Assembly (NCBI RefSeq): GCF_026626665.1
Contig: NZ_JAPNKE010000002.1
Coordinates: forward strand, 3,693,168 to 3,757,167
Length of the DNA stretch: 64,000 nt
Source: Nannocystis pusilla
GTDB lineage: Bacteria > Myxococcota_A > Polyangia > Nannocystales > Nannocystaceae
Direction of reading: 5' to 3'
Of this stretch, positions 1 to 36,174 are shown in pieces. The notes under the pieces are model-generated. The model saw only the letters and a list, made by a program, of their open reading frames with translations, made no database searches and was not told the DNA's origin. The translations under genes and the position numbers were made by a program. Numbering within the stretch: position 1 is the stretch's first letter; every line of letters begins with the position of its first letter.

Positions 1-657
1 CAGGCCCAGCGCGACCTCTCCGTCTCCCTGGAGTGGCTCGGGGACGTGGAAGTGCAGGCGGGCAATCTCGCTGCCGCCCGCGGCCACTTCGACCGCTCCC
101 TCAAGGCCCGCGAAGCGCTGGCCGCCGTGGACCCGACCAGCACCCAGGCCCAGCGCGCCATCTCCGTCTCCCTGATGAAGCTCGGGGACGTGGAAATGCA
201 GGCGGGCAACCTCGCTGCCGCCCGCGGCCACTTCGACCGCTCCCTCAAGGGAGCCGAAGCGCTGGCTGCCGCCGATCCGAACAGTGCCCAGGCCCAGCGC
301 GACCTCTCCGTCCCCCTAGAAAAGCTCGGGGACGTGGAGGTACAGGCAGGCAACCTCGCCGCCGCCCGCGGCCACTTCGACCGTTCCCTCAAGATCGCCG
401 AAGCGCTGGCCGCCGCCGACCCGACCAGCGCCCAGGCCGTGTTTGATGTTGTTCTCTTGCATCTCCGCTTCATGGAGATCACCCTACGCGAACAAAACCC
501 GGCGTCCCTTCGAACACACCTCCAGACCGCAAAAACACTGCTCGCCGAGATGGACCGCCGCGGCCAGGTCGCAGGCTTTGCCCAGCGCGAGCAGCTTCGT
601 ACACTCCTCCAGAATCTACAAGCCGAACTCGACGGCCCTCTCAAACCCCAAAGATGA
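1..657 (+). CDS. TPR-like repeat protein, C-terminal fragment; the 5' end lies outside the window. It contains 3.5 near-identical 120-nt (40-aa) repeats, LGDVExQAGNLAAARGHFDRSLKxAEALAAADPxSxQAQRDLSVSLEK.
   Basis: Frame-1 ORF is open from nt 1 to TGA at 655-657. The repeat periodicity is visible at both nucleotide and protein level. The alpha-helical TPR-like pattern is typical of STAND/NB-ARC C-terminal sensor arrays. Confidence 0.6.
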   Translation, partial: QAQRDLSVSLEWLGDVEVQAGNLAAARGHFDRSLKAREALAAVDPTSTQAQRAISVSLMKLGDVEMQAGNLAAARGHFDRSLKGAEALAAADPNSAQAQRDLSVPLEKLGDVEVQAGNLAAARGHFDRSLKIAEALAAADPTSAQAVFDVVLLHLRFMEITLREQNPASLRTHLQTAKTLLAEMDRRGQVAGFAQREQLRTLLQNLQAELDGPLKPQR

Positions 658-664
658 GCCCCCG

Positions 665-1526
665 ATGTCCTCGCTGCTCGCCGACCTCCGCGCCCGTTAC
701 CTCGAAGGCCGTCTCGTCGTGTTCGCTGGAGCCGGTGTCTCGCACGCGGGCGGCCTCCCCTCCTGGGCCGGCCTGATCCGGTACCTCCTCGCCGAGGCGC
801 GCGCCCTGGCCTCGCCCACGGAGGCGCACGCACTCGGCGAGGCTGACGCTGCGCTCGCCCGCGAGGATTTGATCCGCGCCCTGAGCGTTGTCCAGACGAC
901 GATGACCAGCGCTGCTTACGGCCGTGCCGTCTCCCGCGCCCTCGACGACAGCCGCCTCCCCGCCCCGCCGCTCGCTCGGGCGCTCGCCGGGCTCGCGCCG
1001 ATGCTGCACGCGGTCGTCACCACCAACCTCGATCGCTTCTCGATCGCGCCTTCGCCGGCGAGTGGCCGAGCTTCTCCCTGCCACACCTCAATCTTGGCCA
1101 GCAACGGCATTACATCCTTCAACTCCACGGCACCCGCACAGACCGCAGCTCGTGGGTGCTCGGCGAGCGCGAGTACGAGGATTTGCTGCACGGCCGTCCC
1201 GAACTGCGGCGCTTCGTCGAGGGGCTGTTTCGCTTCCATCCGCTGCTGTTCGTCGGCTACGGTCTGCGCGACCCCGACTTCGACCATCTGTGCGGGCAGC
1301 TCGAGTGTTCGCCCGCGGCCAGGCGCCGCAGCACTTCGCGCTGATGCCGGAGGGCAAGTTCGGCCCGTACGAGCGCCGCCGACTCGCCGAGGCCGGCATC
1401 GAGCTCATCACCTACGCCAACCCTGAAGGCACGCACGCAGCGCTGCTGCAGCTGCTCACGAACCTCGCCGCCGCCCAACCCGGCACCGCGGGTGTGGTAC
1501 CGCCGGATTCCGCGAGGCTCTGTTGA
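665..1526 (+). pseudogene. SIR2_2-family (defence-associated sirtuin-like) protein, disrupted by two frameshifts
   Basis: ATG at 665 is 8 nt after the upstream stop. Motifs seen: LVVFAGAGVSHAGGLPSWAGLI, TTNLDR...AF, LHG...LLFVGYGLRDPDFDHL and a C-terminal ...ELITYANPEGTHAALLQLLTNL. The reading frame goes 2 to 1 at an 11-bp tandem duplication (ctcgatcgc..ctcgatcgc, 1028-1047), then 1 to 3 near 1300. Confidence 0.6.
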
Positions 1527-2290
1527 GGCCGACACCTGGCGCCCGACGGCTTCGCGGCGACGGCCTTGCAACGCCCAGCCGGTCGCTCGTGAGGAGTTCC
1601 ACCGCCTGCTCGCCGCAGAACTCGGCTTGCAGTCGTGGGCGGACGGGCGCGGCGGGACGACCGGCACACGTGGGCAGCGGTCGGCCTGCTGCGCGCTGGG
1701 ATCGTGCGTGACACGGTGGTGGGTGTGCCGGCGCCGACGTGTGCATGGTGCTCCTGAACCTGGAGCGTCTCCACCATCTCTCCACGACACAGGTCGACGC
1801 CCGCGATCCATGGGGACTCGCGGGCGTTCAGAAGGTGAGCGAATTCGTGAACAGATACGCGGGTTTCGGCGATTTGCGAGTGCGATCAACGGGTTGAGAA
1901 ATCCGCGTAGTTACTGCTTCATGCAATAGCCGCCGATCCCTCGATCGCGCTCGCAAGCCGCCCCGAGCCTCCGTCCAGGGCCAGAGGATTCGGCCGATGC
2001 ACGAGAGCCCGCGGACTCGCGGGCTTCGACCTGCGTCCGCGGCTTCGAGCCGAAGCAGCACGAACGAACTGGCGCGCGAGATCCATGAGCGCCGAGGCCA
2101 TCCCGTGACTCTCACCAGGAAATTTCGGCTCCGCGTCGGGGGCGCAATCGGCACGCATCCCGGGCCCGTTCGCTCGCTTGCGCCGAGCCCGCTTCATTGC
2201 ACGCTGAGCTGGCTGGAGGGCGACACGACCGCCCCCCGTCCGATTTGCGATGACCTTGCCTCGGGGCGACTTCCGTCCAGGCTCGCCGCG

Positions 2291-3132
2291 ATGTCCCTCC
2301 CCGCCTTACCTCCTCTCCGTTCGACCGCGACGCCTCTGGCGCTCGCGGCGGCCTGTCTGGTCGCCATGGCCTCCCATGTCGCCACGGGCGCTGCGCCGCA
2401 CGCCGAGGCGACTGCGACTCCAGAGTGCGCCCCGATCCTGTCGCGCCTCTCGCACGCCGCAGCGAATCTCGGTTACGGCATCAGCGCCGAAGCGTTCGGG
2501 CTGGCGGGGAGCAGAGGGCCGAGCCGTCTTCAAGCGACGTGCTCCGCGGAGCGGGTCACGATCGAGCTCACGGAAGAATCCGGCTCCTTGGTGAGCATCC
2601 ACCTCGGCCGCGAGCTCGACCCGCCATTCACGCTGGAGCTCATCGGCCGATTCCCGGGCGCGGGTAACGTCTCGCACACTGCGGTCCTCGGAGACATCAC
2701 AGCAGCCGCGTCGAGTGGATATCTCGCCTTCTCTGCCGACACACCTGGGGGTGGGCGTTCGTCGAGTTCGACCTGGCGGGCGAGGTCTTGGCGGAGGGCG
2801 GGGAGCCGGCGGCAGTGAACCAGGGGCTGGGAACGACGTTGAGCACGTCCGCGACGTGGAAGGATGCCCACGCCCTGAAGCTCGCGCTCGCGGGCTCATG
2901 GGACGCCGGAGCAGGTCAGCCCGGGGACGCGGCGCTCGCGGTCGCGGTCCCCAATCCTCGCGCGTACGGCATCAAGAAGAGCATCATCGGCCAGGCGCTG
3001 GCCTGCGGCGCGGCGGCCCTCACGTGCACGGCCGCCGTGACGTGGTTCCCCCCGGCCGGGGGTTCGTGCGTCGGACAGAGCTCGATCTGCGCCCTGTCGA
3101 TCGGCTGCGCCATCACATCCTGCGCCGACTGA
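2291..3132 (+). CDS. secreted or lipoprotein-like hypothetical protein with a signal peptide and Cys-rich C-terminus; apparent frameshift near 2750 at a G-run
   Basis: N-terminus MSLPALPPLRSTATPLALAAACLVAMAS looks like a signal peptide. Frame 2 (2291-~2760) continues in frame 1 (to 3132) after tgggggtggg. Confidence 0.4.
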
Positions 3133-3146
3133 TCGGAGCTCCCGTC

Positions 3147-3707
3147 GTGCCCGCTCTCCCCGCTCGCCGCACCCTCCTGGACCGCCCGCAGCGCCTCGGC
3201 TTCCTGCCGACCCTTTGGTTCTGGAACGATCGCGAGCGACAGCGCCTCCTGATGCCGCTCATCGTCATGATCGCGCTGCCGCTGACGCCTCTCCTCTTTT
3301 TCCTCATGGTGTGGTTGCAGTTACCCATGTGGACCCTGCTCCTCGCGGGAACCGTGTGGCCGCAACTGGTGTGCGGCCTCGTCGAACGGCGCATTCGTGG
3401 CGAGCTCCGTCGTCGAGCGCTCGACGCGAATCTTCACGCGCTCGCGCCGTTACCCGCGGAGCCGCTGCGGTCGAGCGAGCTCGCGTTCATCCTGTTGGCC
3501 GGCCTCGGGGCCCTCGCAAGCACCCTCGCGGTCGCTGCGGCCTGGGGCGTGGGGCCGGCGCTCTGGACCGCGCTGGGTCTGGTGGTGGTCCTCGTCAGCG
3601 TCTGGGCCGTCTCGCCTCGCCTCTCGCAGCTCGAAGCTCGCGCCCAGGGCGGCCCGGCGCTCGCCGAACCGTCCAGCCCGCGCACCCACCCCGGCGCCCA
3701 CCGGTGA
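3147..3707 (+). CDS. small integral membrane protein, hypothetical
   Basis: Candidate GTG at 3147 sits 15 nt after the upstream stop. Hydrophobic helices MPLIVMIALPLTPLLFFLMVWLQLPMWTLLLAG and AFILLAGLGALASTLAVAAAWGV. Confidence 0.4.
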   Translation: MPALPARRTLLDRPQRLGFLPTLWFWNDRERQRLLMPLIVMIALPLTPLLFFLMVWLQLPMWTLLLAGTVWPQLVCGLVERRIRGELRRRALDANLHALAPLPAEPLRSSELAFILLAGLGALASTLAVAAAWGVGPALWTALGLVVVLVSVWAVSPRLSQLEARAQGGPALAEPSSPRTHPGAHR

Positions 3708-3926
3708 GGCGCCGAGCGGAGGCCCGGCCCCAGGGTTCGAGCACTGCAGCGTCAGCACGCCTCCAATCGTACGAACCTGCCCGCCCACTCAATCAGGGCT
3801 GACCAGGAGCGTCTCTGCGACGTCCCCACGATACCTCGACGACCCCGGGGCAACGACGCTTGCATCAACCCGTGAGCCCCGCCGCGCCCCTGCCCGCCGC
3901 GCGTCCGAAGATGATAGGCTGCCCGG

Positions 3927-5235
3927 ATGTCGCCTTCCCGCTGTCCGGACCCCTGCAGGCTCGCCGCGCTGGCCCTGTTCGCCTGCGGCCCGACCCCCGG
4001 CAGCGACACGACCACCGACACGAGCACGACGACCGCCACGAGTTCCTCGGAGCCGACCGTCGGCACGACGACGACCGGCACGACGACGACCGGCACGACG
4101 ATGACCGGCACACCGACGACCAGCCCCGACGGCGACACGGCCGCCGCCACGACCGTCGGCCCGACGACGACCGGCGTGGACCCGGGCACCACGAGTGACA
4201 CCACCACGACCAGCGACAGCACGACCACCGCCGACGACGACTGCACCATCGTCGAGTTCGCCGAGCCCACGCTCGAGGCCGCCGTGCGCCTAGCCTACGG
4301 TCTACCGCCCGGGCCGATCGCCGGCGACGCGCTGACCGGCCCGGGGGGATCGCCGTCACCGAGCTCCAGCATGGCCCGATCGCCGACCTCACCGGGCTGG
4401 AGTGTGCGACCGGGGTCGTGAGTCTGACCCTGGTCGGCCACGAGGCCTTGACCGACATCTCCCGGATCGCGGGGCTGACCAAGCTCGAGTGGCTCGAGCT
4501 CTCGGAGACCGCGGTCACCGACCTCTCGCCGCTGGCAGAACTGACGGCCCTGAAGAATCTCTACCTCGGCAGCATCCCGGCGACCGACATCAGCCCGCTC
4601 GCCGGTCTGTCCGCCCTCGAATCTCTGAGCCTGAGATCCTCGCCGACCACCGACCTCTCGCCCTTGCAGGGCCTCACGGCGCTCAGGCGGCTCGACCTCG
4701 GCAATACCCTCCCCCCGACCTCTCCCCGCTCACCGGCCTCGTTACCCTCGAGAACCTCGACCTCGCCCTCTCCGGGGTCACCGACCTCGCGCCGCTCGCC
4801 GGCCTGCCGGCGCTCGTCCAGCTCGACCTGACCCACTCCGCGGTCATCGACCTCGGGCCGCTCGCCAGCCTGCCCAAGCTCGAGCGTCTGTTCATCGCCG
4901 ACACCGAGGTCGCCGACCTGTCCCCTCTGACGGGCCTCCCGATCCTCTACCTGTACGCCCCGTCGTGTGCGATCAGCGACCTGAGCCCGATCGCCAGCTT
5001 CCCGCTCCCGGAAGTGATCGACCTCAGGGACAACGCAATCGTCGAGGTCGACGCCCTCGCCGGCGTCGACTGGGTCGCCCCCGAGAATACGTGCGCCATG
5101 CTCCTGCTGACTGGCAATCCGCTGTCCGCCGCGGCCAAGCAGCAGCTCCCCGCCATGTGCGACGCCACCGGTGTCAGCTTCCAGGCCAGCGGCCTCGAGT
5201 GCATCACCGACGCCTGCATCCCCCCGCCGCCCTGA
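3927..5235 (+). CDS. lipoprotein with a Thr-rich linker and leucine-rich repeats (internalin-like, DLSPL periodicity); two apparent frameshifts (~4400, ~4700)
   Basis: N-terminus LAALALFACG is a lipobox. A poly-T/TTTG linker is followed by repeated LxxLxxLxLxxTxVTDLSPLAGL units spread over three frames. Confidence 0.55.
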
Positions 5236-5261
5236 GCTGCCGTCGAACCCGGACGATCCGC

Positions 5262-5746
5262 TCAGCCCGCGGCGCCCTGTTGTAGCGCCGCGAGCACCTG
5301 TGCCTGTCGCGGCGTCGGCTGAGGCGCCGGAAGCTGCGACCTGGCCAGCCGCTCGACGGCCCACGCGTGCGCGGTCATGCCATTGCGGTCGCGCGCGGTC
5401 GGGTCGGCCCCCGCCGCGAGCAGCAGCTCGATCACCGCCACGTCGACATGGCGACCTTGCGGGCGGCGCTCGCGTGCGGAGCGGACGTGAAGGCGTACAA
5501 CGGGCGGCTGTAGCCGAGCAGGTGACGATTCGGATCGGCCCCGGCGGCCAGCAACAGCTCGGTCATCGCCTCGCGCACAGGCGCGTCGGGCCGCATCGTC
5601 GCGGCCCGGATCGGCGCGGTCTCGTATCGGCCGACGCCGTTCGGATCGGCCCCCGCGTCGATCTCCGCACATACGGCCGCGAGGTCCCCGGCTTTGATCG
5701 CCCTGAGCAGGCGCAGCACCTTGCGATGGGCCGGAGTCCTCGCCAC
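5262..5746 (-). CDS. ankyrin-repeat protein with one apparent frameshift
   Basis: Repeated ...LLLAAGADPN... ankyrin consensus on the minus strand, in two frames. Confidence 0.5.
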
Positions 5747-6103
5747 CCAGAGATCTTACCGCGAGCTGCCGCCGACCTCCTTGATCTGCGCCCCGGCGGC
5801 GCTGCCCGACTCGGTCTGCAGCTCGAAATACACCGTGTCGATGCCTGCGCTGGCCCGAGGACCCCGACCCGCGACGCCGCGATCTCCTGAAGCTCTCGCA
5901 CGGAGCAGCGTGGGCGCCTCGCGCAAGACGGGAATGGGCGGCTCCGGGTCGAAGCGCTCCAGCTCCGGCTCGCACACCAAGGTAAGCCGCGCCCGAACCG
6001 CGCACGACCGTCGTGCATCCGGCGGTCGCGCTCGAGGCCGCCGAAAAAATCTACCCTCGCCTTCGCAACACTCGCCCGCGCGGCGGCATACCGGCGGAGA
6101 ACG

Positions 6104-6702
6104 ATGAACCACTCCGGAGCGACCACCGCCCTCGCGGACATCAAGTGGCTGCAACGCCTCGCCGTCGTCCTCGCACGAGACGCCGACGACGCCGCCGACC
6201 TCGTGCAGGACACCCTCGTGACCGCATGGTCCCACCCGCCGGCCGACGACGGCCAGCCGTTGCGCCCGTGGCTGGCGACGGTCCTTCGCAACCGTTTCCG
6301 CATGCAGCTGCGCACGCAGGCGCGCCGTGAGCGGCGCGAGCAGGCCGGGGCGTCGACGGGGGCGACCGTCTCCGAGCCCGACCGAGAGTTGCTGCGCCTG
6401 AGCTGCTCCGTGTCCTCCTCGCCGAGCTCGAGCGGCTCGCGCCCGAGGACCAGAAGATCCTCGTCCGGAGGTTCTTCGAGGGCGAGAGCGCCGCCGAGAT
6501 TGCCCGCGGGCTCGCCATCCCTGCGGCGACCGTCCGCTCGCGCCTCCACCGCTCGCTCCAGCGCCTGCGCGCTCGCATGGACGAGCAGTTCGGGGGCGTT
6601 CGGCCTGGTGTGTCGTGGTCCTGCCCGTGCCTTCCGGCGCGTCGCTCTCATCTGCGAGCCCGAACAGCTCCACGAGCATCGCTGCGAAAGTCATCCTCGT
6701 GA
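6104..6702 (+). CDS. ECF (sigma-70 family) RNA polymerase sigma factor, frameshifted near 6386-6414 by an imperfect ~14-nt tandem duplication
   Basis: Region 2 DLVQDTLVTAW..RPWLATVLRNRFR. Region 4 LLAELERLAPEDQKILVRRFFEGESAAEIARGLAIPAATVRSRLHRSLQRL lies in the adjacent frame. Both frames encode ELLR at the junction. The 3' end is uncertain. Confidence 0.65.
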
Positions 6703-9585
6703 CGAGCATCGTCGGTGTGGCCGGCTGGCTCGCACTCACGGAGCCCTCCCCGGCGGGCCCTCCCTCCGCGGGACCGACTAACTCGCGAACCGTCTCGCAG
6801 TCTCCGGTCGAGGGACCGGCGAGGACGCCGAACGATCCGCGCCGTGCAGATCGGGCGGCCATTTCCGGCTACGTGCGCGACGCCGCGAAGCGACCGGTTC
6901 CGGCCGCGACGGTGTGCGCGGCGTCGTCGTCGGAGGCGCTCGGCGCGTCGGAGCGGCGCGCGAGGCCTTGCACGATCGCAGCGGCGGACGGCTGGTATCG
7001 CCTCGACGGCCTGCTGGCAGCGCCGCATCGCGTCACCGCCAGCGCGCCGCATTTCATCCCGCAGGCGCACCGGAGCGGCTCCGGGGCCCTGGCGCGCGAG
7101 CTGGTGCCTCTGCGCTCCGGGCAGGAACAGCGCGGCATCGACATCACGCTGCTGCCCGGCGGGGTCAACCTCGTCGGGATCGTGCGCGACCTCGGCGGCG
7201 GAGAGGTCGATGGGGCGATCGTCGAAGCGGGCGACGCGGCCGGGCGCTCGGGCGCGGACGGGAGCTTCTCGCTGAGGGTCCGCCCGGGCGAGGTGCTGGT
7301 GAGGGCGACGGCGGAGGGCTACGCGGACACGCAGGCCTCCGGGCGCGCACCGGGATTGACGCTCGAGGTCCTCATGACTCCCGAGTCGGTGCTGCTCGGC
7401 CGGGTGGTGCGCGCCGACGACGGATCGCCGGTCGCGGGCGCCGAGGTGAGCGCGCTCGACGGCGGCGGCTGGGGTCGCCAGGGACCGGCCTTCACCGACG
7501 CCTCCGGAAACTTCAGGATCGACGCGCTGCGACCCGGTGCCTACAAGGCGCGGGCGCTGCATGACGAGGGTCATGGTGCTGCGGCGGCGCTGGTGGTGCT
7601 CGGCCTCGGTGAAACCTCCGCGCCGGTGGAGGTTCGCATGCACCCGGCTTTCCTGGTCGAAGGGACAGTCGTGATCGCCGGCGGGGGCACGTGCGATCGT
7701 GGCTCGATCATCCTCTCGGATCCCCAAGGTCAGCGTCATGCGGCTATCGCCCCCGACGGCAGGGTGCGGATCCCGGCTGCTGCCCGGGAGTTACAAAGTG
7801 GATGTCCGGTGCGAAGGGTTCGTGTCGGCGCCGAGCTACCCGCCCCTGGCGATCGCCGACCGCAGCCTCCGCGAGCTACGGTGGGAGGTCCGACCGGGTC
7901 AGGCGATCCGCGGCACGGTCGTCGCTAAGACCAGGGAGCCCGGCACTGCGACGACGGTGACGGTGAGCCCGCAGGTCGATCCGAGCCGTTCGAATGCGCA
8001 GTCGACCAGCGGCCGCGCAGAGGCCGACGACAACGGACGGTTCGAAGTCACGGGCCTGCTGCCGGGGCGCTATGCATTGCGCGTGTTCGCCGGAGATCCG
8101 CCGCAGCTCCTCCCAGGGCCCGAAATCGAGGTTCGTGAAGGACATGACCTCGACGGCCTCCGCATCGAGCTTCCGGCGGCCGGCGAGGTTCGTGGCGAGG
8201 TCCGCGACGTCCACGGCCGAGCCATCCCCGGCGCGCGAGTCTTGCTTCGCGGGCCGAACTACGCGCAGACGACCAGCCTCGACGACGGGAGCTTCCGCCT
8301 CTCCGGCCTCGCTGCCGGCGCGTACCAGGCGAGCGTGAGCAAGAGCTACCAGCCGATGCGCATGCACGACGCCGAGGACGGTGATGCGCCGCGCGTGCAG
8401 GTCGAGACCGGCGAGGCCGCGGTCCTCGACCTCGTCGTCGAGGCCCCGGGCGGGAGGATCACCGGACGGGTCGTGGATGGCGACGAGGCCGCGCAAGACG
8501 ACGTCTTCGTCGAGGTCTTGCACGAGCCCGAGAGCGGCTCACCCGGGGCCGCCTTGCGCGACATGCGGTGGAGCATGGACCGCGGCCTGCGGCCACGGAT
8601 GACCGACGTCGACGGAAGATTCGAGTTTGGCGACCTGCCTGAAGGGACATATACGCTCGTAGCCCACCGGCGTGGCGGCGGCGAGGGGATCGTCGAACGC
8701 GTGGCGCTCGGCAGCGAGGTCGTCGTCCAGATCGCCGCACCGGGCTCGCTGGTCGGAAGGGTGCGCTCGCCCGTCGGCGGCGGACCGGAGCGATTCTCGG
8801 TGGAGCTCCGCGATGTGGCGACCGGCTACCAGGTACGCGACAGCTTCTTCCGCACCGACGGAACGTTCGCGTTCCCGCAGGTCCCCGCAGGGAAGTTCGT
8901 GGTCGCGGTCGAGGCACCCGAAGGCTCGGGCAAGGCCGAGGTCGCGCTGGTGACGGGCGAGCGCGGACAGGTCGAGGTCGTGCTGGCGGGCCGCGTGACC
9001 GTCCGTGGCCGCGTGCTCGACCTCGACACCGGCGAGCCGGTGCCGGGGATGCGCGTGAAGTTCGGCGCGGAAGGGACAGAGGCGTTCATCAGCTCGGCGG
9101 ATCATGTCGACGAGCGCTCGGTGTCCGACGCGGAGGGCCGGTTCGAGGTCGCCGACGTGCCTGTCGGCCACGCGACGGTGGTCGTCACGGCCCGGAGCTT
9201 CGGAGCGACGAGCGACCACGAGACCATCTGGACGCGGGCGATGATCTCGAGCGGTGGCGTGGTCGAACTGGCGCCGCTCCAGGTGCCGCGACGACGGCTT
9301 CACCCCGGCGACGAGGCCGGCGAGCTCGGCATGAGGATGCGGCGCGACGACCCGACGGAGGGAGCGGAAGCGCGGCGGCCGACAGTCGCGTTCGTGCAGC
9401 CTGGCGGCCCGGCGGCGCACGCCGGGCTGCGGCCCGGCGACGCGATCGTCGCGGTCGACGGACATGACGTCACCGGCGACCACGTGCAGCGCTTCGATGC
9501 CCTGACACGTGTGCCCGTGGGAACCGAGCTCCGCCTCGAGCTCGTGCGTGGAGGCAGCGTCACCCTCACCGCCGCACGCCGATGA
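6615..9585 (+). CDS. membrane-anchored anti-sigma-like protein with carboxypeptidase-regulatory-like (CarboxypepD_reg) repeats and a C-terminal PDZ domain; frameshift near 7700
   Basis: TM helix AKVILVTSIVGVAGWLAL sits just downstream of the sigma gene. Repeated GxVxDxxGxPVxGAxVxxxxxxxxTDxxGxFxxxxLxxGxY units. C-terminal PDZ: GLRPGDAIVAVDG. Confidence 0.6.
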
Positions 9586-16945: not shown

Positions 16946-17031
16946 TTTTTAGCAGAACTGAAAAGCGAGCGGCAATTGCGCGCTTCTCCGCCGGGGCGCG
17001 GACGCCTAGCTTCTCCCGCCAGGAGACCGCC

Positions 17032-17896
17032 ATGAGCACCCGCCCCGCCCCCGCTTCCGAGACCGCCAAGGTCTGGTTCATCACCGGCTCGTCCTCCGGC
17101 TTCGGCCGCGCCCTCGTCGAGGAGGTCCTCGCCCGCGGCGACAGCGTCGTCGCCACCGCGCGCCGGCCCGACGTCCTCGCCGACCTGGCCGCCCGCGCCC
17201 CCGATCGCTTCCAGCTCGCCGAGCTCGACGTCACCCGCCCCGAGCAGGTGCGCGCCGTCGTCGCCGCCGCCCTGGCCCGCTTCGGCCGCATCGACGTCCT
17301 CGTCAACAACGCCGGCTTTAGCATCCTCGGCGCGCTCGAGGAGACCGACGACGACGCCCTGCGGGCGACCATGGAGCTGATGTTCTTCGCCGCGATCGCC
17401 ACCACCCGCGAGGTCCTGCCGCACATGCGCGCGCCGGAGCGGCACGATCGTCCAGATCACCAGCGTCGGCGGCATCACCACCGCGCCCGGATTCGGGGCC
17501 TACTGCGCGGCCAAGCACGCGCTCGAGGCCGCGTCCGAGAGCCTCGCCGCCGAGGTCGAGCCACACGGCGTGCGCGTCCTCGTGGTCGAGCCGGGCGCCT
17601 TCCGCACCGCCCTGTTCGGCCCGGCCTTCCGCCACATGCCGGCCATGGACGCCTACGCCGCCACCGTCGGGGCCATGCGCTCGTGGGTGACGCAGACCCA
17701 CGGTGAACAGGGCGGCGATCCGGCCAAGGCCGCGCGCGCGATCGTCGACGTCGTCGGCCGCTCCGCCGGCCCGCTGCGCCTCCCGCTCGGCGGCGACGCG
17801 GTCGACCAGATCCGCGCCAAGCTGGCCAGGATCGCCGCCGACGTCGATCACGCCGAAGCGCTGGCCCGCAGCACCGACTTCGACCCGCAGGCCTGA
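17032..17896 (+). CDS. short-chain dehydrogenase/reductase (SDR) with one frameshift (~17430, consistent with loss of one GC from a cgcgcgcg run)
   Basis: TGSSSGFGRAL Rossmann motif, NNAG, then ...VQITSVGG...YCAAK in the +1 frame. RBS aggagaccgcc. Confidence 0.7.
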
Positions 17897-20930: not shown

Positions 20931-21431
20931 GGTCGGTTTCTCCGCCCACCAGTTTGATCGTGGTTGCACGGCGCGCCTGCCCGACTAGCGCCACGAAACG
21001 GCGCCAGGCGCTCGCCGACGGCCCTTGTCGGACCGTCGATTTCGGCGGCCCGTTCGCCATTCCCACCGTTCGCGCGCATGACGCCGCCCGATCGTACGAA
21101 TCACGCCGCAGCGGGCTCGGCCGTATGAACCCGCCTCCCCCTCGACCTCGGCGCCTTTCTGCGGGGACGCGGGCGTGGAGACGGGGGTATCACCTGGCCC
21201 GCACCCGAGACCCGATCCTCGCAGCGACTCTTGCATAGGCGTCATGCGAAAGATCACCTGCCCGGCCGCGCTCGGCCCCCTGCGCGCCCCGCCACGAATC
21301 ACCATTCGTGCGAATCATGGGCCCTCACGGGCTGCGGCGGCCGGGCGCGGCCACCCGCTCGTCGGAGTTCACCGCGCCGCGGCCAGCGGCCGGCGGGGCG
21401 CCTCGGACACCGCGGACACAAGGAGCATCGG

Positions 21432-24400
21432 GTGAACCTCACCAGGGACGAGCAGCGCACGTCGCTCACCAAGCGGCTCACCGTAGCGATCGCCACGCCG
21501 ATCGCCCTCCTGTTGCTGCTCGGCGTCGTCCTCGGCCGGCAGATCCTCCTGATGGCGGACGACGCCGCCTGGGTCAACCACAGCAATGAAGTCCTCTCGC
21601 AGGCCAACGCGACGATGCTCGAGATCGTCGATCAGGAGACCGCCCTGCGCGGCTTCCTGTTGACCGGCGATCGCCAGTATCTGGGCCCGTTCGAGCGGGC
21701 GCACCCTGACGGCAAGTTCGAGCGCCTGCACGAGATCGTCGCCGACAGCCCCTCGCAGCAGGCTCAGTTCGATCAGGCCCACCAGCACTACCGCGAGTGG
21801 TACGCCACCTGCGAGGCCGCCCTGAACGGTCACGACCTCGACCAGGCGCGCAGCCCCGCCGCCATGCTCGCGCGCAAGGCCCGGATGGACGACATCCGCG
21901 AAGCCATGGCCGTGGCCACCGACATCGAGAAGGACCTGCTGCGCGCGCGCCGTCGCCTCGGAGCGCTCGACCGCGGTCGCGCGGACCGCCTTCGTCGCGC
22001 TGCTCGCCGGCGTCGCCCTCCTGCTCGCCTTCCTCTCGCGCCGTCAGCTCGCCGCGATCGCCAGCACCTTCGGCACCGCCCTCGACGCCGAGCAGCAGGC
22101 CCGCGCCGCGCTCGAGGCCGAGGCGTGGATCCGCGAGGGTCACACGCGCGTCGCCGAGGTCGTGCAGGGCGAGAAGAGCACCGTGCAGGTCGGCCACGAC
22201 TGCCTGGCCGCGCTCGCCGCTCACGCCGGCGCCGACGTCGGCGCCTTCTTCGTGCGCGACGGCGGCGACTGGGTGCGGCGGATCGGCCTCGCGCTCGACT
22301 CGCGGGTCGCCGGGCCCGAGACCTTCGCCGCCGGTGAGGGCGTCATCGGCCGCGCCGCCGCCGGCGGCCAGGTCGTCGAGCTGCGCGACGCCGCCGAGCT
22401 GCCCCTGCGCACCGGCACCAGCGAGCGCTTCCCCGCCCACGTGCTCGTCCTGCCCGCGCGGGTCGACGGCGTCACCGTCGCCGTGCTCGAGCTCGGCTTT
22501 TTGCGCCCGGCCGAGCCGCGCGTGCGCCGCTGCTCGAGCGGATCGGCGAGACCGTCGCGCTCGCGGTCCGCAGCTCCGAGCAGAAGGAGCGGCTCGCCGC
22601 CCTGCTCGAGGAGACCCAGCGCCAGGCCGAGGAGCTGCAGACCCAGCAAGAAGAGCTGCGGGTGCAGAACGAGGAGCTCGAGCAGCAGACCCGCGCGCTC
22701 GAGGAGTCGCGGGCGCGCCTCGGCAATCAGCAGGCCGAGCTCGAGCAGATCAACGCCCACCTCGAGGAGCAGACGCAGGCGCTGCAGGCCGAGCGCGACA
22801 CCCTCACGCAGGCGCAGATCCAGCTCAAGCGGACCTCGGCCTTCAAGTCCGAGTTCCTCGCCAACATGTCGCACGAGCTGCGCACCCCGCTCAACAGCTC
22901 GCTGATCTTGGCCCGCCTGCTGGCCGACAACCGCCAGGGCAACCTCGACGCCGAGCAGGTCAAGTTCGCCGAGACCATCTACTCCGCCGGCAACGACCTC
23001 CTCACCCTCATCAACGACATCCTCGACCTGTCGAAGATCGAGGCCGGCATGCTCGACGTCCGGCCCGAGACCATCTCGCTGGCGCGGCTCACCGATCAGA
23101 TGATGACGACCTTCCGCCCGGTCGCCCGCGACCGGCGGCTCGCCCTCGACCTCGACGTCCAGCGCGACGTCCCGGGCGCGCTCGTCACCGATCCGACGCG
23201 GCTGTCGCAGATCCTGCGCAACCTGCTGTCGAACGCGCTCAAGTTCACCGAGCAGGGCGGCGTCAAGCTCACGGTGCGCGCCGCCGGGGCCGGCAGGGTC
23301 GCCTTCGACGTCACCGACACCGGCATCGGCATCCCGCCCGATCAGCAGGAGCTGATCTTCGAAGCGTTCCGCCAGGCCGACGGCACGACCAACCGCAAGT
23401 ACGGCGGCACCGGCCTTGGTCTGTCGATCTCACGCGACCTCGCGCGCCTGCTCGGCGGCGAGCTCACCGTCGCCAGCGTCGTCGGCCGCGGCAGCACCTT
23501 CACCCTCACCATCCCCGCGCAGCTCGTCGTCCATGGCTCGGCCGCGGCGCCGAGCCTCGCGCCCTTGCCGCCTCCGCCGCCGCTTCCTCCCCTGCGTCGC
23601 CTCCCCGCGCCCCCGCCTCTGCCCCAGACGCCGACCGCCGCGCGCTCGATCCTCCTCGTCGAGGACGACCCCGCGTTCGCCGGCGTCCTCGCCGGCCTCG
23701 CGCGCGAGCTCGACTTCCACCCCTCCACGCCGACACCGCCGAGGAGGGCCTTGCGCTCGCGCGGCAGCAGCGGCCGAGCGCCATCGTCCTCGACGTCTCT
23801 CTGCCCGACCGCTCCGGCCTCAGCGTCCTCGACGCGCTCAAGCATGACCCTGCGACCCGGCACATCCCGGTCCACGTCATCTCCGCCAGCGACCACACCC
23901 GCACCGCGCTCGAGATGGGCGCGGTCGCCTACGCCATCAAGCCCGTCGTCCGCGATCAGCTGGTCACGGCCTTGCGGCGGCTCGAGTCGAAGGCCACCCA
24001 GTCGCTGCGGCGCGTCCTCGTCGTCGAGGACGACGTCGTCCACCGCGAGAGCACCTGCAAGCTGCTCGCGGCCGACGACGTCGAGACCGTCCCGGTGGGC
24101 ACCGCCGCCGACGCGCTCCGCGCGTTGCGCACCACCACCTTCGACTGCATGGTCCTCGACCTCAGCCTGCCCGACAGGTCAGGTTCCGAATTGTTGCGGG
24201 AGATGGCCCAGGGCGAGCAGTACGGGTTCCCGCCCGTCATCGTCTACACCGGCCGCGCGATCAGCCGCGCCGAGGAGCAGGAGCTCGGGCGCTTCTCGCA
24301 GTCCATCATCATCAAGGGCGCGCGCTCGCCGGAGCGGCTGCTCGACGAGGTCACCCTGTTCCTCCACCAGGTCGAGACCAACCTTCCGCCCGAGCGACAG

Positions 24401-24811
24401 CGCATGCTGCGGGACGCTCGCCACCGCGACGCCGTGTTCGAGGGCCGGCGCGTGCTCGTCGTCGAGGACGACGTCCGCAACGTATTCGCCTTGACCAGCG
24501 TGCTCGAGCCGCGCGGGGCCAAGGTGGAGATCGCGCGCAACGGCAAGGAGGCGCTGCAGCACCTGAAGCTCAAGCCGGGCGTCGACCTGATCCTGATGGA
24601 CCTGATGATGCCGGAGATGGACGGCCTCACCGCCACGCGGGCGATCCGCGCCGACCCGGCGACCGCCAAGATCCCGATCATCGCCCTCACCGCCAAGGCC
24701 ATGGCCGACGATCGCGCCAGCTGCCTCGCCGCCGGCGCCAACGACTACATCGCCAAGCCGCTCGACGTCGACAAGCTGCTGTCGCTGGCGCGGGTGTGGA
24801 TGCCCAAATGA
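21432..24811 (+). CDS. hybrid sensor histidine kinase: CHASE3-GAF-(E/Q-rich coiled coil)-HisKA-HATPase-REC-REC-REC; at least three frameshifts
   Basis: RBS aggagcatcg then GTG at 21432. A TM segment precedes the CHASE3 region. GAF: ...[15 protein letters not shown].... H-box: [15 protein letters not shown]-box: GGTGLGLSI. Three D-containing receiver domains follow. Confidence 0.75.
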
Positions 24812-25626: not shown

Positions 25627-26222
25627 ATGGCGACGCGCGACATTCACCTGATCGTGATCGGCGGCTCGTCGGGGGCGCTCGACGCCTCGCCGCCCTGCTG
25701 CCCGCGCTGCCCGCGGGCTATCCGCTGGCGCTGGCCGTGGTCCTGCACCTGCCGCCGACCCAGCCCAGCCACCTCGTCGAGGTCCTGCGCACGAGGACCT
25801 CGCTGCCGACGCGGGAGCCCGACGACAAGGAGCCCATCGTGCCCGGCACGCTCTACGTCGCCCCGCCGAACTACCACCTGCTCGTCGAGCGCGGGCGCAG
25901 CTTCGCCCTCTCGGTCGACCGCCCCGAGCTGTTCTCGCGGCCCTCGATCGACGTGCTGTTCGAGTCGGCCGCCGACGCCTTCGGGCCGCACGTCGCCGGC
26001 GTCCTGCTCAGCGGCGCCAACGAGGACGGCGCCCGCGGCCTCGGCCACATCGCCGCGGCCGGCGGCCTCACCATCGTCGAGTCGCCGACCACCGCCGCGG
26101 TCCCGACCATGCCGGCGGCCGCGCTGCGGCGCGTCGCCGTCGACCACGCCGTGCCGGCGGCCGTCATCGGCACCTTGCTCGCGCGGCTCGCCGCGCCCAC
26201 GCGCTCCGGGGAGGCGACATGA
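25627..26222 (+). CDS. cheB: CheB-type methylesterase catalytic domain with no receiver domain; one frameshift (~25690)
   Basis: IVIGGSSGAL ... PSIDVLFESAA ... GVLLSGANEDGARGL. Start is 3 nt after the cheR stop and it ends in an ATGA overlap with the next gene. Confidence 0.7.
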
Positions 26223-27687
26223 ACCTCGAACCGATCAACTTCCTCCTCGTCGACGACACCGAGCAGAACCTCATCGCCCTCGAGGCGCTCCTGCGGCGCG
26301 ACGGCCTCAACATCCTCACCGCGCGCAGCGGCTTCGAGGCGCTCGAGCTGCTGCTCGTCCACGACGTCGCCCTCGCCTTCCTCGACGTGCAGATGCCGGG
26401 GATGGACGGCTTCGAGCTGGCCGAACTGATGCGAGGCACCGAGCGCACCAAGAACGTGCCGATCATCTTCATCACCGCCGGCGCGCGCGACAGCGAGCGG
26501 GTGTTCCAGGGCTACGAGTCCGGCGCGGTCGATTTCCTGCACAAGCCGATCGACCCGCGGGTGCTGCGGAGCAAGGCCGACGTGTTCTTCGAGCTGTCGC
26601 GGCAGCGGCGCGACTGCACCCACGCCCTGCGCCTCAACGAGATGTTCGTCGGCATCCTCGGCCACGACCTGCGCACCCCGCTGTCGGCGATCCAGACCGG
26701 CACCGAGATCCTCGAGCAGCTGGTGGAAGGCGACGACCAGCGCGGCATCTTGCGGCGCATGTTCGTCTCGAGCCACCGCATGAACGAGATGATCGAGCAG
26801 CTGCTCGACCTCACGCGCGCGGCTGGCCGGCGGCCTCGGCTTCGCGCGCGCGCCAACGGGTCGACCTCTTCGAGCTGGTGCAGCGCGCCGTCGACGAGCT
26901 GCGCACCACGCATTCGCAGCGCGAGGTCCGGGTCGAGACCCTCGGCGACACCGTCACCGCCGGCGATCCCGACCGCCTGGTCCAGGCGCTGTCGAACCTG
27001 ATCGGCAACGCGATCCAGCACGGCCACGCGGACGGCCCGATCGGCATCCGCGTGTTCGACGACGGCCACCAGATCGCGGTCGAGATCCGCAACCGCGGCG
27101 TCATCCCGCCCGAGCTCGTGCCGGTGCTGTTCGACCCGTTCCGCGGCCGCGACCACTCGCCCTCGCGCACCAACGCCCGCGGCCTCGGCCTCGGCCTCTA
27201 CATCGCCCAGCAGATCGCCCAGGCCCACGGCGGCACCGTCTCGGTGCTCTCGAGCGACGAGACCGACACCGTGTTCACGCTCCGCCTGCCGCGCGTCTCG
27301 CCCGAGCCCACGCGCGCCGATCGCCCGGCGCGCGGCCACACCGTGCTGATCGCCGACGACGACGAGGCGACCCGCGAGAGCCTGCGCGAGGCCTTCGCCG
27401 GCGAGGGTTACGCGACCATGACCGCGACCAACGGGCGCGACGCCCTCGACCAATTGCTGCACGCGCGGGTCAAGCCCGACCTCGTGATCCTCGACCTCGT
27501 GATGCCGCTGCTCGAGGGCGGGCAGGTCTATCAGGCCATGCAGGCCGTCCCCGAGCTGGCGCGGATCCCCGTCATCGTGTCGACCTCCGATCCGGCCCGC
27601 GCCCCCGCCGGCACGATCCTGATCCCCAAGCCGGTCAAGCTCGGCCGCCTGCTCGACACCGCCGCGCGGCTCGTCCGCTCGCCGTGA
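26219..27687 (+). CDS. hybrid histidine kinase/response regulator (REC-HisKA-HATPase-REC); frameshift near 26830
   Basis: N-terminal REC (LLVDDTEQN...DVQMPGMDGFEL). H-box GILGHDLRTPLSAI. HATPase GLGLGLYIAQQIAQAHGG. C-terminal REC (VLIADDDEATRE...DLVMP). Confidence 0.75.
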
Positions 27688-35096: not shown

Positions 35097-36174
35097 ATGA
35101 GCGGAGTCGTATCACCGGAGTTCGTGCTCGCCTCGCGGGAGCCGGACCTGCGTGCGCGGATCGGCGGCCAGGTCCGCTCGCCGCGCGAGGTCGTGGTCAT
35201 GCGCGCCTTGCCGGGCCTCGGCGACTTCCTGTGCGCCACCCCGGCGCTGCGGGCCCTGCGAGCCGCGCTGCCGCGGGCCAGGATCACCCTCCTGGGCCTC
35301 GCCGGGGCCCGCGAGCTCGTCGCCCGCTACCCGCACCTCGTCGACGACCTGCTCGAGTTCCCCGGCTTCCCCGGCCTGCCCGAGACCCCCGCCGACGTGC
35401 GCGCCCTGCCCGACTTCCTGCGCGCGGTCCAGGGCCGCTTCGACCTCGCCCTGCAGATGCACGGCGACGGCCTCGTCAGCAACATCTTCGTCCAGCTGCT
35501 GGGCGCGCGCGAGCGCCGGCTTCTACGCCCCGCCGCAGCCGTGCCCCGATCCCGCGACCTTCGTGCTCTACCCCGGCGACTTCGCGGAGCCGCGGATCCT
35601 CCTCGCCTTGCTCGCCGCGCTCGGCATCGAGGCGCGCGGCGAGCGGCTCGAGTTCCCGCTCGCGCCGGACGACGCGCACCAGTGCGACGCATTGCTGCAG
35701 GCCGCCGGCCTCGCGCCCGACGCCGCGTTCGCGATCGTCCACCCCGGCGCCGCCGAGCCGCACCGCCGCGTCGACCCCGGCGTCCTCGCGCAGGTCGCCG
35801 ACGGCCTCGTGACCCGCGGCCTCGCGGTCGTCCTCACCGGCGCCGCCGACGAGGCCGACCTCGCCGCCGCGGTCCGCCGCCACGCCCAGCGCGACCTCGT
35901 CGATCGGGTCGGCCGCACCGGCCTCGGCTCGCTCGGCGCCCTGGTCGCGCGCGCTCGCCTCGTCGTCGCCGGCGACACCGGCGTCTCGCACCTCGCCAGC
36001 GCGCTGTGTACCCCGAGCGTCGTCGTCTTCCGCAGCACCGCCCCGGGCCGCTGGGCGCCCCTCGATCGCGTGCGTCACCGCGTCGTCGACGCCCGCGTGG
36101 TCGCGCCGACGGCCGCGGCGATCCTCGCCGAGGCCGACGCCGCCCTGTTCCTCGCGGGGGTGGATCGTGCTTGA
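35097..36174 (+). CDS. GT9-family glycosyltransferase (ADP-heptose heptosyltransferase-like); frameshift near 35515
   Basis: N-domain [23 protein letters not shown]-domain [24 protein letters not shown]. Confidence 0.65.

What the first reader, a model, noticed from the sequence alone, without database searches (positions are those of the whole stretch)
1..1526. TPR-repeat sensor-like gene followed immediately by a SIR2_2 effector-like gene, the latter broken by an 11-bp tandem duplication
SIR2_2 domains (here LVVFAGAGVSHAGGLPSWAGLI ... TTNLDR ... LLFVGYGLRDPDF) are NAD+-depleting effectors in Thoeris, DSR, SIR2-HerA and Avs-type antiviral systems. Here the SIR2 gene starts 8 nt after the stop of a gene whose visible C-terminus is a recently expanded 40-aa TPR-like repeat array. 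Such arrays are typical of STAND/Avs sensor C-termini. A split sensor/effector arrangement like this is not a named system as far as I know. The SIR2 frame is broken by a clean 11-bp duplication (ctcgatcgc-tt-ctcgatcgc, 1028-1047). Removing one copy restores TTNLDRAFAGEW. A second 1-nt indel lies near 1303. A clean duplication looks like a genuine inactivating mutation rather than a homopolymer read error.
Basis: partly seen in the sequence, partly recalled or inferred. Interest (0 to 1): 0.6.

Follow-up and report, generated by a model that had tools for sequence, protein, structure and literature searches.

The report
SIR2 effector beside STAND–TPR sensor
The window opens with the tail of a large NLR-like (STAND) sensor gene and, 7 bases later, a SIR2 NAD-degrading effector gene, which is a variant of known antiviral SIR2–STAND systems. 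The "breaks" in the SIR2 gene are two single-base gaps of the kind found throughout this nanopore-only assembly, not an 11-bp duplication.

Summary
**The two genes are real.**
- Window 1-657 encodes the last 218 aa of a TPR protein. It has three 144-bp (48-aa, not 40-aa) units plus a conserved tail.
- A SIR2_2 gene starts at 665 and runs through three frames to 1526.

**The "11-bp duplication" is wrong.**
- Every relative reads TTNLDRFL(D/E)RAF, so the repeated LDR is native. The window lacks one C at 1039/1040.
- A second C is missing at about 1302.

**The breaks are probably sequencing errors.**
- The source is the Nannocystis pusilla Na p29T genome, assembled from nanopore R9.4.1 Flongle reads alone.
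- At least eight more frameshifts break five unrelated genes in these 64 kb, so the SIR2 breaks are most likely artefacts.

**The upstream gene is a STAND sensor.**
- In the same genome (P0083) and in orthologues it reads SIR2-like domain, nSTAND1 NTPase, one hydrophobic helix, then the TPR array.
- Its own SIR2-like domain has lost GAGxS and the catalytic His. The free SIR2 keeps GAGVS, TTN and HG.
- The pair sits 2-7 nt apart in eight loci.

**Reading and score.** I read it as an Avs5-like NAD-depletion module whose active SIR2 is supplied in trans. That makes it a new variant of a known kind, of moderate interest.

The parts
1..432 (+). Three tandem 144-bp (48-aa) TPR-like units. They are the last units of the sensor array of a STAND protein whose 5' part lies upstream of the window.
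   Evidence: TRF gives period 144, 3.0 copies, 87% matches. Pfam gives TPR_12, TPR_2 and TPR_16. The units are in register with the 14 units of the L002 orthologue.
433..657 (+). Non-repeat C-terminal tail of the STAND-TPR protein (AVFDVVLLHLRF...LLAEMDRRGQVAGFAQREQL), with stop TGA at 655-657.
   Evidence: tblastn with the L002 STAND tail hits window 355-615 at 63% identity, E 2e-31. The same tail precedes the free SIR2 gene in L003-L006, L086 and L094-L096.
658..664 (.). 7-nt spacer between the two genes.
   Evidence: The spacer is 2-7 nt in all eight loci that hold the pair.
665..1039 (+). SIR2 gene, first frame piece. It runs from the ATG through GAGVS (NAD loop) to TTNLDRF.
   Evidence: Translation; alignment to 25 homologues.
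1039..1040 (+). Frameshift site 1. One C is missing: native TTC-CTC-GAT against window TTC-TCGAT.
   Evidence: DNA alignment with L001, L002, L003, L006 and L086 shows a single-column gap in the window only. Protein consensus is TTNLDRFLERAF.
1040..1302 (+). SIR2 gene, second frame piece. It holds the catalytic HG (ILQLHG) and LLFVGYGLRDPDFD.
   Evidence: The His aligns with H146 of the KomC NADase, which was solved as an H146N mutant.
1301..1303 (+). Frameshift site 2. One base is missing: native CAG-CTC-CGA-GTG (QLRV) against window CAGCTCGAGTG.
   Evidence: blastn alignments to 12 relatives each need a 1-nt gap in the window at this spot.
1303..1526 (+). SIR2 gene, third frame piece (RVFARGQAPQHFALMPEG...LAAAQPG...), with stop TGA at 1524-1526. 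No C-terminal add-on domain follows.
   Evidence: tblastn with the relatives' C-terminal domains finds nothing in 1526-5000. No Pfam hit for ORFs in 1492-4100.

Best explanation
**What it is.** Window 1-1526 is the 3' end of a two-gene NLR-like immune module of Nannocystis pusilla.
- Gene 1 is mostly upstream of the window. It encodes a STAND protein made of a degenerate SIR2-like domain, an nSTAND1 NTPase, one hydrophobic helix and an array of at least 10 48-aa TPR units.
- Gene 2 starts 7 nt after gene 1. It encodes a free SIR2_2 NADase with all catalytic motifs.

**Proposed mechanism (inferred, not shown).**
1. The TPR array binds an invader-derived ligand.
2. The NTPase oligomerises.
3. 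The clustered SIR2-like N-terminal domains, which have lost GAGxS and the catalytic His, act as docking sites. They recruit the free SIR2 and order it into an active SIR2 oligomer.
4. That oligomer hydrolyses NAD+ and stops the infected cell. The model is EfAvs5, where SIR2 dimers within a filament switch on NADase activity.

**The frameshifts.** The two frame breaks in gene 2 are single-base gaps. They are most likely errors of the unpolished nanopore assembly, so the gene is probably intact in the organism.
For: **Identity of gene 2**
- SIR2_2 at 2.8e-21, with partial ThsA, Dsr1 and SIR2 hits in PADLOC.
- GAGVS, TTN and HG are conserved. The His aligns with KomC H146.

**Identity of gene 1**
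- P0083, on the same 11,948,136-bp contig as window proteins, carries SIR2_2 + nSTAND1 + AAA_16 + TPR_12, with Walker A GPSGVGKSS.
- The L002 orthologue hits nSTAND1 at 1.1e-84, and its tail matches the window.

**Coupling of the two genes**
- The tail-then-SIR2 junction has a 2-7 nt spacer in eight loci, across 57-78% SIR2 identity.

**Division of labour**
- The N-terminal SIR2 of partnered STANDs reads GP(L/G/A) and K(I/V/L/M)(R/L)G.
- Free SIR2s and single-chain SIR2-STAND fusions keep GAG and HG.
- 0 of 7 His-intact STAND loci hold a second SIR2 gene, against 5 of 7 His-lost loci (Fisher p=0.02, uncorrected for relatedness).

**Mechanistic precedent**
- EfAvs5 SIR2-NOD filaments stabilise dimeric SIR2 and activate NADase (PMC11897194).
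- NTPase N-terminal adaptors pair with effectors encoded separately (PMC8195603).

**Frameshifts as artefacts**
- Both are 1-nt gaps against all relatives.
- An adh_short domain is split into profile positions 1-124 and 129-190 across two frames at 17439.
- HisKA and HATPase_c are split at 26819, and a hybrid kinase lies in four frame pieces. LRR and GT9 genes are also split.
- P0083 runs out of frame inside its TPR array.
- The assembly method was ONT Flongle R9.4.1 with Flye, Racon and Medaka only (PMC10435759).
Against: - No read data or second assembly of this strain was available, so a real pseudogene cannot be excluded. Two breaks in 862 nt is above the window average of about one per 5 kb.
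- Loss of His does not prove inactivity. PaAvs5-1 has NG in place of HG and still depletes NAD+ (bioRxiv 10.1101/2025.07.08.663546).
- Two His-lost STANDs (L147, L148) have no second SIR2 on their contigs.
- The free SIR2 clade also occurs without an nSTAND1 neighbour: next to a WD40 protein, next to a kinase-TPR protein, fused to NACHT, and orphaned in ILAH1.
- I could not read the DNA between the end of P0083 and window position 1. That P0083 and window 1-657 are one gene is therefore inferred.
- No SIR2:SIR2-like contact was modelled or measured.
Confidence: 0.6

Rival explanations
1. A genuinely decayed module. The SIR2 gene, and the STAND gene upstream, carry real frameshift mutations, and the locus is a dead defence system in this strain.
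For: - There are three frame breaks in about 6 kb of this locus.
- Related loci do decay. IS21 cuts the STAND gene in L003, and ILAH1 keeps only about 150 nt of the STAND tail before an orphan SIR2.
- No C-terminal add-on domain is present, and 2.4 kb of sequence without coding signal follows the gene.
Against: - Apart from the two gaps, the coding sequence is clean: no in-frame stops, and 72-78% identity to intact orthologues along its whole length.
- The same kind of break hits at least five unrelated genes in the window, including an SDR and two histidine kinases.
- The assembly is unpolished ONT R9.4.1.
Confidence: 0.15
2. Two independent effectors side by side. The STAND protein is a self-sufficient Avs5-type enzyme with a non-canonical but active SIR2. 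The downstream SIR2 works separately, for instance through EAD1-EAD1 contacts with other proteins in the relatives that carry EAD1.
For: - NG-type Avs5 proteins are active without the His.
- TTNxD is kept in 4 of 5 partnered STAND N-termini.
- Relatives of the free SIR2 carry EAD1, CHAT or TIR add-ons: P0013 and P0015 have PF19955, and P0005 scores 22.8 bits. They also occur in other gene contexts.
Against: - The 2-7 nt spacing is kept in eight loci.
- Both GAGxS and HG are lost together in the partnered STANDs.
- A second SIR2 is absent from all seven His-intact loci.
- The window's own SIR2 has no adaptor domain at all.
Confidence: 0.2
3. The module is not antiviral. It would be a membrane receptor-type STAND that senses an extracytoplasmic cue, such as kin recognition, predation or developmental lysis in a social myxobacterium, and triggers NAD+ depletion as regulated cell death.
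For: - A single strongly hydrophobic stretch preceded by an Arg run sits between the NTPase and the TPR array in P0083, L002, L095a, P0085, P0087 and P0088. This predicts that the TPR array lies outside the cytoplasm.
- The family is concentrated in Myxococcota.
- The rest of the window is not an obvious defence island.
Against: - Topology was inferred from hydropathy alone.
- Every characterised SIR2-STAND and SIR2_2 effector is antiviral.
- Related loci sit beside mobile and defence-like genes: IS21, SLFN_AlbA_2, AAA_15/21, HMUDK_hel and MazG_C.
Confidence: 0.1

Closest known systems
Avs5 / AVAST type 5 (SIR2-STAND), e.g. EfAvs5 and PaAvs5
   Same: - The domain order is N-terminal SIR2-fold domain, STAND NTPase, then a C-terminal repeat sensor.
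- The output is SIR2-mediated NAD+ hydrolysis.
- Activity is switched on by SIR2 oligomerisation (PMC11897194).
   Different: - The NTPase belongs to the nSTAND1 clade, and PADLOC Avs models do not match.
- A hydrophobic helix separates the NTPase from the TPR array.
- The cis SIR2 has lost GAGxS and HG, and a second, motif-intact SIR2 is encoded 7 nt downstream.
- Avs5 is described as a single gene.
nSTAND1 / effector-associated-domain (EAD) conflict systems of Kaur, Burroughs, Iyer and Aravind (eLife 2020, 2021)
   Same: - The NTPase is nSTAND1.
- The effector is encoded as a separate neighbouring gene.
- The N-terminus of the NTPase matches a domain on the effector protein.
- Relatives of the free SIR2 carry EAD1, CHAT or TIR.
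   Different: - Here the matching pair is a SIR2-like domain and a SIR2 enzyme, not a small non-catalytic EAD or Death-like domain.
- The window's SIR2 has no EAD.
KomC (Kongming), ThsA (Thoeris), DSR1 and DSR2 SIR2 NADases
   Same: - The SIR2_2-type catalytic domain has GAGxS, TTNxD and HG.
- KomC is the best solved match, with the catalytic His aligned.
- PADLOC gives partial ThsA and Dsr1 hits.
   Different: - There is no SLOG/STALD domain, no DSR-type C-terminal sensor and no KomA/KomB partners.
- Matches cover only the SIR2 domain, and the NCBIfam Dsr1 score is 32.9 bits against a cut-off of 1400.

Membership tests
SIR2_2 (PF13289) NADase-type sirtuin domain | Profile match above the curated cut-off | tested here: met
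   76.6 bits against a cut-off of 24.5, covering profile positions 2-140 of 141, on the frame-repaired product.
SIR2_2 (PF13289) NADase-type sirtuin domain | NAD-binding and catalytic motifs GAGxS, TTNxD and HG | tested here: met
   GAGVS at 22-26, TTNLD at 119-123 and LHG at 154-156 of the repaired protein, conserved in 25 homologues. The His aligns with KomC H146.
SIR2_2 (PF13289) NADase-type sirtuin domain | Uninterrupted reading frame | tested here: inconclusive
   The assembled sequence has two 1-nt gaps. The window-wide frameshift load and the ONT-only assembly make artefacts likely. No reads were available.
Avs5 / SIR2-STAND | One polypeptide with N-terminal SIR2, STAND NTPase and C-terminal sensor | tested here: met
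   This holds for gene 1, judged from P0083 (same contig) and the L002 orthologue: SIR2_2 + nSTAND1/AAA_16 + TPR. Only the last 218 aa lie in the window.
Avs5 / SIR2-STAND | Catalytically equipped SIR2 in cis (GAGxS, TTNxD, HG or NG) | tested here: not met
   P0083 reads VGPLVP, TTNLD and KVRG. L002 reads AGPLVS, TTNLD and KIRG. GAGxS and the His (or Asn) are lost and only TTNxD remains.
Avs5 / SIR2-STAND | Match to curated Avs models (PADLOC) | tested here: not met
   The L002 STAND orthologue gives only weak Dsr1 and ThsA hits on its SIR2 part and no Avs model. P0083 itself was not scanned.
Avs5 / SIR2-STAND | Protection against phage through NAD+ depletion | not testable with these tools
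   This needs an experiment.
nSTAND1 / EAD-type conflict system (Aravind group) | nSTAND1-clade NTPase | tested here: met
   PF20703 at 1.1e-84 on L002 residues 292-716. P0083 carries precomputed PF20703.
nSTAND1 / EAD-type conflict system (Aravind group) | The same small adaptor (EAD or Death-like domain) on the NTPase N-terminus and on a separately encoded effector | tested here: not met
   The NTPase N-terminus is a SIR2-like domain, not an EAD. The window's SIR2 has no add-on domain. EAD1 occurs only on some relatives of the free SIR2.
Thoeris ThsA / DSR1 / DSR2 | SIR2 joined to SLOG/STALD (ThsA) or to the long DSR sensor region, with a full-length model match | tested here: not met
   Hits cover only the SIR2 region of those models: ThsA profile positions 144-226 of 478, and Dsr1 positions 24-277 of 1227. 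NCBIfam Dsr1 scores 32.9 bits against a cut-off of 1400.

The most novel reading that the evidence does not exclude
This would be a membrane-spanning NLR-like receptor. Its N-terminal SIR2 domain has become a catalytically dead adaptor, a pseudo-enzyme playing the role that Death or EAD domains play elsewhere. The adaptor recruits and activates a separately encoded paralogous SIR2 NADase. In relatives that NADase carries CHAT, TIR or EAD1 as a second output. The 48-aa TPR array may sense ligands outside the cytoplasm.
Probability: 0.3. Interest if true: 0.6.

Novelty: new variant of a known kind. Interest (0 to 1): 0.35.

Why it matters
**For this finding.** The claim that drew attention, a clean 11-bp inactivating duplication, is a misreading. 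The apparent pseudogene is best explained by nanopore indel errors. The practical lesson is that frame breaks in this genome should not be read as biology without polished reads.

**For the biology.** The locus shows a recurring myxobacterial variant of SIR2-STAND immunity. In it the sensor's own SIR2 has lost its NAD loop and catalytic His, and a motif-intact SIR2 paralogue is translationally coupled downstream. If the dead domain really docks the live enzyme, this would be a case of an effector domain turning into an adaptor. That is a plausible route by which single-chain NLR-like proteins become multi-component systems, and a way for one effector to serve two sensors, as in L095. PADLOC v2 has no model for the pair.

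Tried and rejected
1. **Fetching the source contig upstream of the window.**
   - The look-up of encoding contigs with three window proteins and with P0083 returned nothing.
   - The genome-contig scan did not contain the strain.
   - The continuity of P0083 with window 1-657 therefore stays inferred.
2. **Searching with the 218-aa TPR tail.** The repeat words saturated the candidate list. Neither the N. pusilla protein nor the L002 protein came back, so the search was uninformative.
3. **Looking for a degraded C-terminal domain after 1526.** Neither search found anything:
   - tblastn with all relatives' C-termini;
   - Pfam on ORFs in 1492-4100.
4. **Comparing flanks.** blastn and tblastn of the relatives' flanking genes against window 1480-8000 found no shared downstream genes.
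5. **Programmed frameshifting or phase variation.** I rejected this. Both sites are CC-to-C in non-slippery, non-repetitive contexts, and the same kind of break is scattered over unrelated genes.
6. **A universal rule that a dead cis SIR2 always has a free SIR2 next door.** I rejected this as universal, because L147 and L148 lack a partner on their contigs.
7. **Viral, plasmid and E. coli collections.** I did not search them. The locus is chromosomal and myxobacterial.
Full report
**What is in the sequence**

Window 1-657 (+) is the 3' end of an ORF that runs off the window start and stops at TGA 655-657. Tandem Repeats Finder reports a 144-bp period, 3.0 copies and 87% matches over 1-438. Pfam calls the region TPR (TPR_12 2.4e-12, TPR_2 and TPR_16).

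Seven nucleotides after the stop, an ATG at 665 opens a gene that can be followed through three reading frames to TGA 1524-1526. Its frame-repaired product hits SIR2_2 (PF13289) at 76.6 bits against a cut-off of 24.5. It also hits the SIR2 parts of the ThsA, Dsr1 and SIR2 models of PADLOC.

**The "11-bp duplication" does not exist**

The protein search returned 26 close homologues, the best being Nannocystis sp. ILAH1 at 78% identity.
- All 25 aligned homologues read TTNLDRF(L/I/M)(D/E/Q)RAF(A/S/T)G at this spot. The doubled "LDR" is native.
- At the DNA level, five relatives read CGCTTCCTCGA(T/G)CG where the window reads CGCTT-CTCGATCG.
- ILAH1 even has the intact near-repeat TCGATCGGTTCCTCGATCGC.
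- The lesion is thus one missing C at 1039/1040.
- Removing 11 bp also restores the frame, but only because -11 and +1 are equivalent modulo 3. It would delete four conserved residues.

The second lesion is likewise one missing base at 1301-1303: CAGCT-CGAGT in the window against CAGCT(C/G)CG(C/G)GT in 12 relatives. Once one base is added at each site, the protein is collinear with its homologues over residues 1-275. It keeps GAGVS, TTNLD and LHG. The His aligns with H146 of the solved KomC NADase.

**Are the two gaps real mutations?**

An exact look-up of window proteins placed the window on an 11,948,136-bp contig of Nannocystis pusilla, with locus tags OV079_16200 and OV079_16220. The paper describing that genome states that N. 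pusilla Na p29T (DSM 14622T) was sequenced only on an Oxford Nanopore Flongle R9.4.1. It was assembled with Flye and corrected with Racon and Medaka, without short reads (PMC10435759).

A codon-position HMM over the window, followed by a stop-codon test, gave at least eight further same-strand frame switches that are not gene boundaries. Pfam confirms that these breaks split genes:

| Gene | Position of break | Evidence (unless stated) |
|---|---|---|
| Short-chain dehydrogenase (adh_short) | 17439 | Profile positions 1-124 in one frame, 129-190 in the next |
| REC histidine kinase | 26819 | HisKA ends and HATPase_c begins at the switch |
| Hybrid histidine kinase, 21420-24805 | 21941, 22530, 23721 | Four frame pieces; the GAF and HisKA-HATPase_c pieces hit Pfam; the other two were read from the translations only |
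| LRR lipoprotein | 4341 (G6 run), 4712 (C6-7 run) | LRR repeats in both frames |
| GT9 glycosyltransferase | 35513 | Only the downstream piece hits Glyco_transf_9; the upstream piece has no Pfam hit, so this break rests on the frame HMM |

The upstream STAND gene carries yet another break. The last roughly 130 residues of P0083 are an out-of-frame reading of TPR units: ETWPPLAVTSTAPS is GNLAAARGHFDRS shifted by one base.

With about one frameshift per 5 kb across unrelated genes, the two SIR2 breaks are not evidence of inactivation. I rate them as probable assembly errors, at about 0.8. Only accurate reads can settle this.

**What the upstream gene is**

Searching with the N-terminal 760 aa of the orthologous STAND protein of Nannocystis sp. 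SCPEA4 (L002) returned P0083. It is annotated "SIR2 family protein [Nannocystis pusilla]", is 1147 aa long, and lies on the same 11.9-Mb contig. It is 73% identical to the query and carries SIR2_2, nSTAND1, AAA_16 and TPR_12. Its end lies upstream of the window, and I could not fetch the DNA in between. That it is the 5' part of the window's TPR gene is therefore a strong inference, not a direct reading.

The L002 orthologue is complete at 1639 aa. It has these parts:
- SIR2_2 at residues 108-232;
- nSTAND1 at 292-716 (1.1e-84);
- one hydrophobic stretch preceded by an Arg run at about 756-780;
- 14 units of exactly 48 aa;
- a tail that matches window 355-615 at 63% identity.

Its stop lies 7 nt before a 413-aa SIR2 gene, P0005.

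**The pair is conserved**

The STAND tail followed by the free SIR2 gene recurs with a 2-7 nt spacer in eight loci: the window, L002, L003, L006, L086, L094, L095 and L096. These span 57-78% SIR2 identity. Variants also exist:
- L095 has two STAND genes flanking one SIR2-CHAT gene.
- L098 has a STAND gene, a truncated copy and SIR2-CHAT.
- L003 has the STAND gene cut by IS21.
- ILAH1 keeps only about 150 nt of the STAND tail before an orphan SIR2.

The free SIR2 clade carries variable C-terminal add-ons: CHAT, TIR, EAD1 or none. EAD1 is clear on P0013 and P0015, and P0005 scores 22.8 bits, just under the cut-off. The clade also occurs next to a WD40 protein, next to a kinase-TPR protein, or fused to NACHT. 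The window's copy has no add-on, and nothing recognisable follows it.

**A division of labour between two SIR2 domains**

I aligned three groups of SIR2 domains.

| Group | Members | Motifs |
|---|---|---|
| Free SIR2s | window, L002, L095, L098 | GAGV(S/A), TTNLD (TTTLD in L002), (Q/K)LHG |
| Single-chain SIR2-STAND fusions | L008, L010, L014-L016, L093, P0085 | GAGV(S/A/P), TT(N/S)(L/I)D (TTSID in L008), KLHG |
| N-terminal SIR2 of partnered STANDs | P0083, L002, L095a, L095b, L098a, L098b | G(P/S)(L/G/A) for GAG; K(V/I/L/M)(R/L)G for HG; TTNLD mostly kept |

Across the loci I hold, none of seven His-intact STAND loci has a second SIR2 gene in the flank, whereas five of seven His-lost loci do. 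Fisher's exact test gives p=0.02, but the sample is small and is not corrected for relatedness. The exceptions are L147 and L148. In L146 the second SIR2 is 5.7 kb away and has a degenerate Gly loop.

**How it most likely works**

- **Shown:** the domain content, the motif states and the tight gene coupling.
- **Established for the family:** SIR2_2 effectors deplete NAD+. In EfAvs5, SIR2 and NOD contacts build filaments that stabilise a dimeric SIR2 and switch on NADase activity (PMC11897194). Effectors encoded apart from a STAND NTPase are recruited through a matching N-terminal domain (PMC8195603).
- **Inferred:** ligand binding by the TPR array drives nSTAND1 oligomerisation. The clustered, catalytically degenerate SIR2-like domains then template assembly of the free SIR2, which carries out NAD+ hydrolysis.

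Caveats:
- PaAvs5-1 works with NG in place of HG, so loss of His alone does not prove that the cis domain is dead.
- No contact between the two SIR2 domains was modelled.
- The hydrophobic helix suggests that the TPR array may lie outside the cytoplasm. That would change what the sensor can see. This rests on hydropathy alone.

**Comparison with known systems**

The module works like Avs5 (SIR2-STAND). It fails membership on two tested features: the cis SIR2 is not catalytically equipped, and no PADLOC Avs model matches the L002 orthologue. P0083 itself was not scanned against PADLOC.

It belongs to the nSTAND1 world described by Kaur and colleagues. However, it uses a SIR2-like/SIR2 pair where those systems use small EAD or Death-like adaptors. 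It is not Thoeris, DSR or Kongming, because only the SIR2 domain matches.

**Verdict**

The gene pair is real and was correctly recognised as sensor plus SIR2 effector. The repeat length, the 11-bp duplication and the "genuine inactivation" argument are wrong. The module is a new variant of a known kind and is of moderate interest. Most of that interest lies in the dead-SIR2/live-SIR2 arrangement and the possible membrane topology, and both remain hypotheses.

Noticed in passing
window 3927-5235 (+): An LRR lipoprotein gene is split over three frames. The switches are at about 4341, inside a G6 run, and about 4712, inside a C6-7 run. LRR_4 hits occur on both sides of the second switch. The annotated 164-aa 'hypothetical protein' OV079_16200 is its first fragment.
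   Followed up: partly
window 17011-17893 (+): A short-chain dehydrogenase is broken at 17439. Pfam adh_short positions 1-124 lie in one frame and 129-190 in the next. This is the clearest single-domain proof of an indel in the window.
   Followed up: yes
window 21420-24805, 26216-27675 and 35118-36162 (+): Three more genes show frame breaks. A hybrid histidine kinase lies in four frame pieces. A REC-HisKA / HATPase_c-REC kinase is split at 26819. A GT9 glycosyltransferase appears split at 35513, though only its downstream piece has a Pfam hit. Together these show an assembly-wide indel problem of about one per 5 kb.
   Followed up: partly
window 1527-3950: These 2.4 kb downstream of the SIR2 stop have no codon-position signal in the frame HMM, no Pfam hit on any long ORF, and no similarity to the flanks of any related locus.
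   Followed up: partly
P0083 residues ~758-780; L002:5074-9993 residues ~756-780; also L095a, P0085, P0087, P0088: A single strongly hydrophobic 19-21 aa stretch (Kyte-Doolittle 19-residue mean of 1.9-2.4), preceded by an Arg run, sits between the nSTAND1 module and the TPR array. It suggests a single-pass membrane STAND with the repeat sensor outside the cytoplasm.
   Followed up: partly
L003:4541-9995; L001:9850-10000: Related loci show decay of the sensor gene. An IS21 element (rve + IstB) truncates the STAND gene in L003. In Nannocystis sp. ILAH1 only about 150 nt of the STAND tail remain in front of an orphan SIR2 gene.
   Followed up: partly
L095:761-11290; L098:4234-11467: In L095 one SIR2-CHAT gene is flanked by two paralogous His-lost STAND genes, which could mean two sensors share one effector. 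L098 has a full STAND gene, a truncated second copy and a SIR2-CHAT gene.
   Followed up: partly
window 1-432 versus L002:7756-9770: The window's three TPR units are 86-88% identical to one another at the DNA level. The mean is 76% within the 14-unit L002 array and 77% between the two genomes, which hints at local duplication or gene conversion. Variable residues cluster at unit positions 7-8, 11-12, 15, 18-19 and 35-37.
   Followed up: partly
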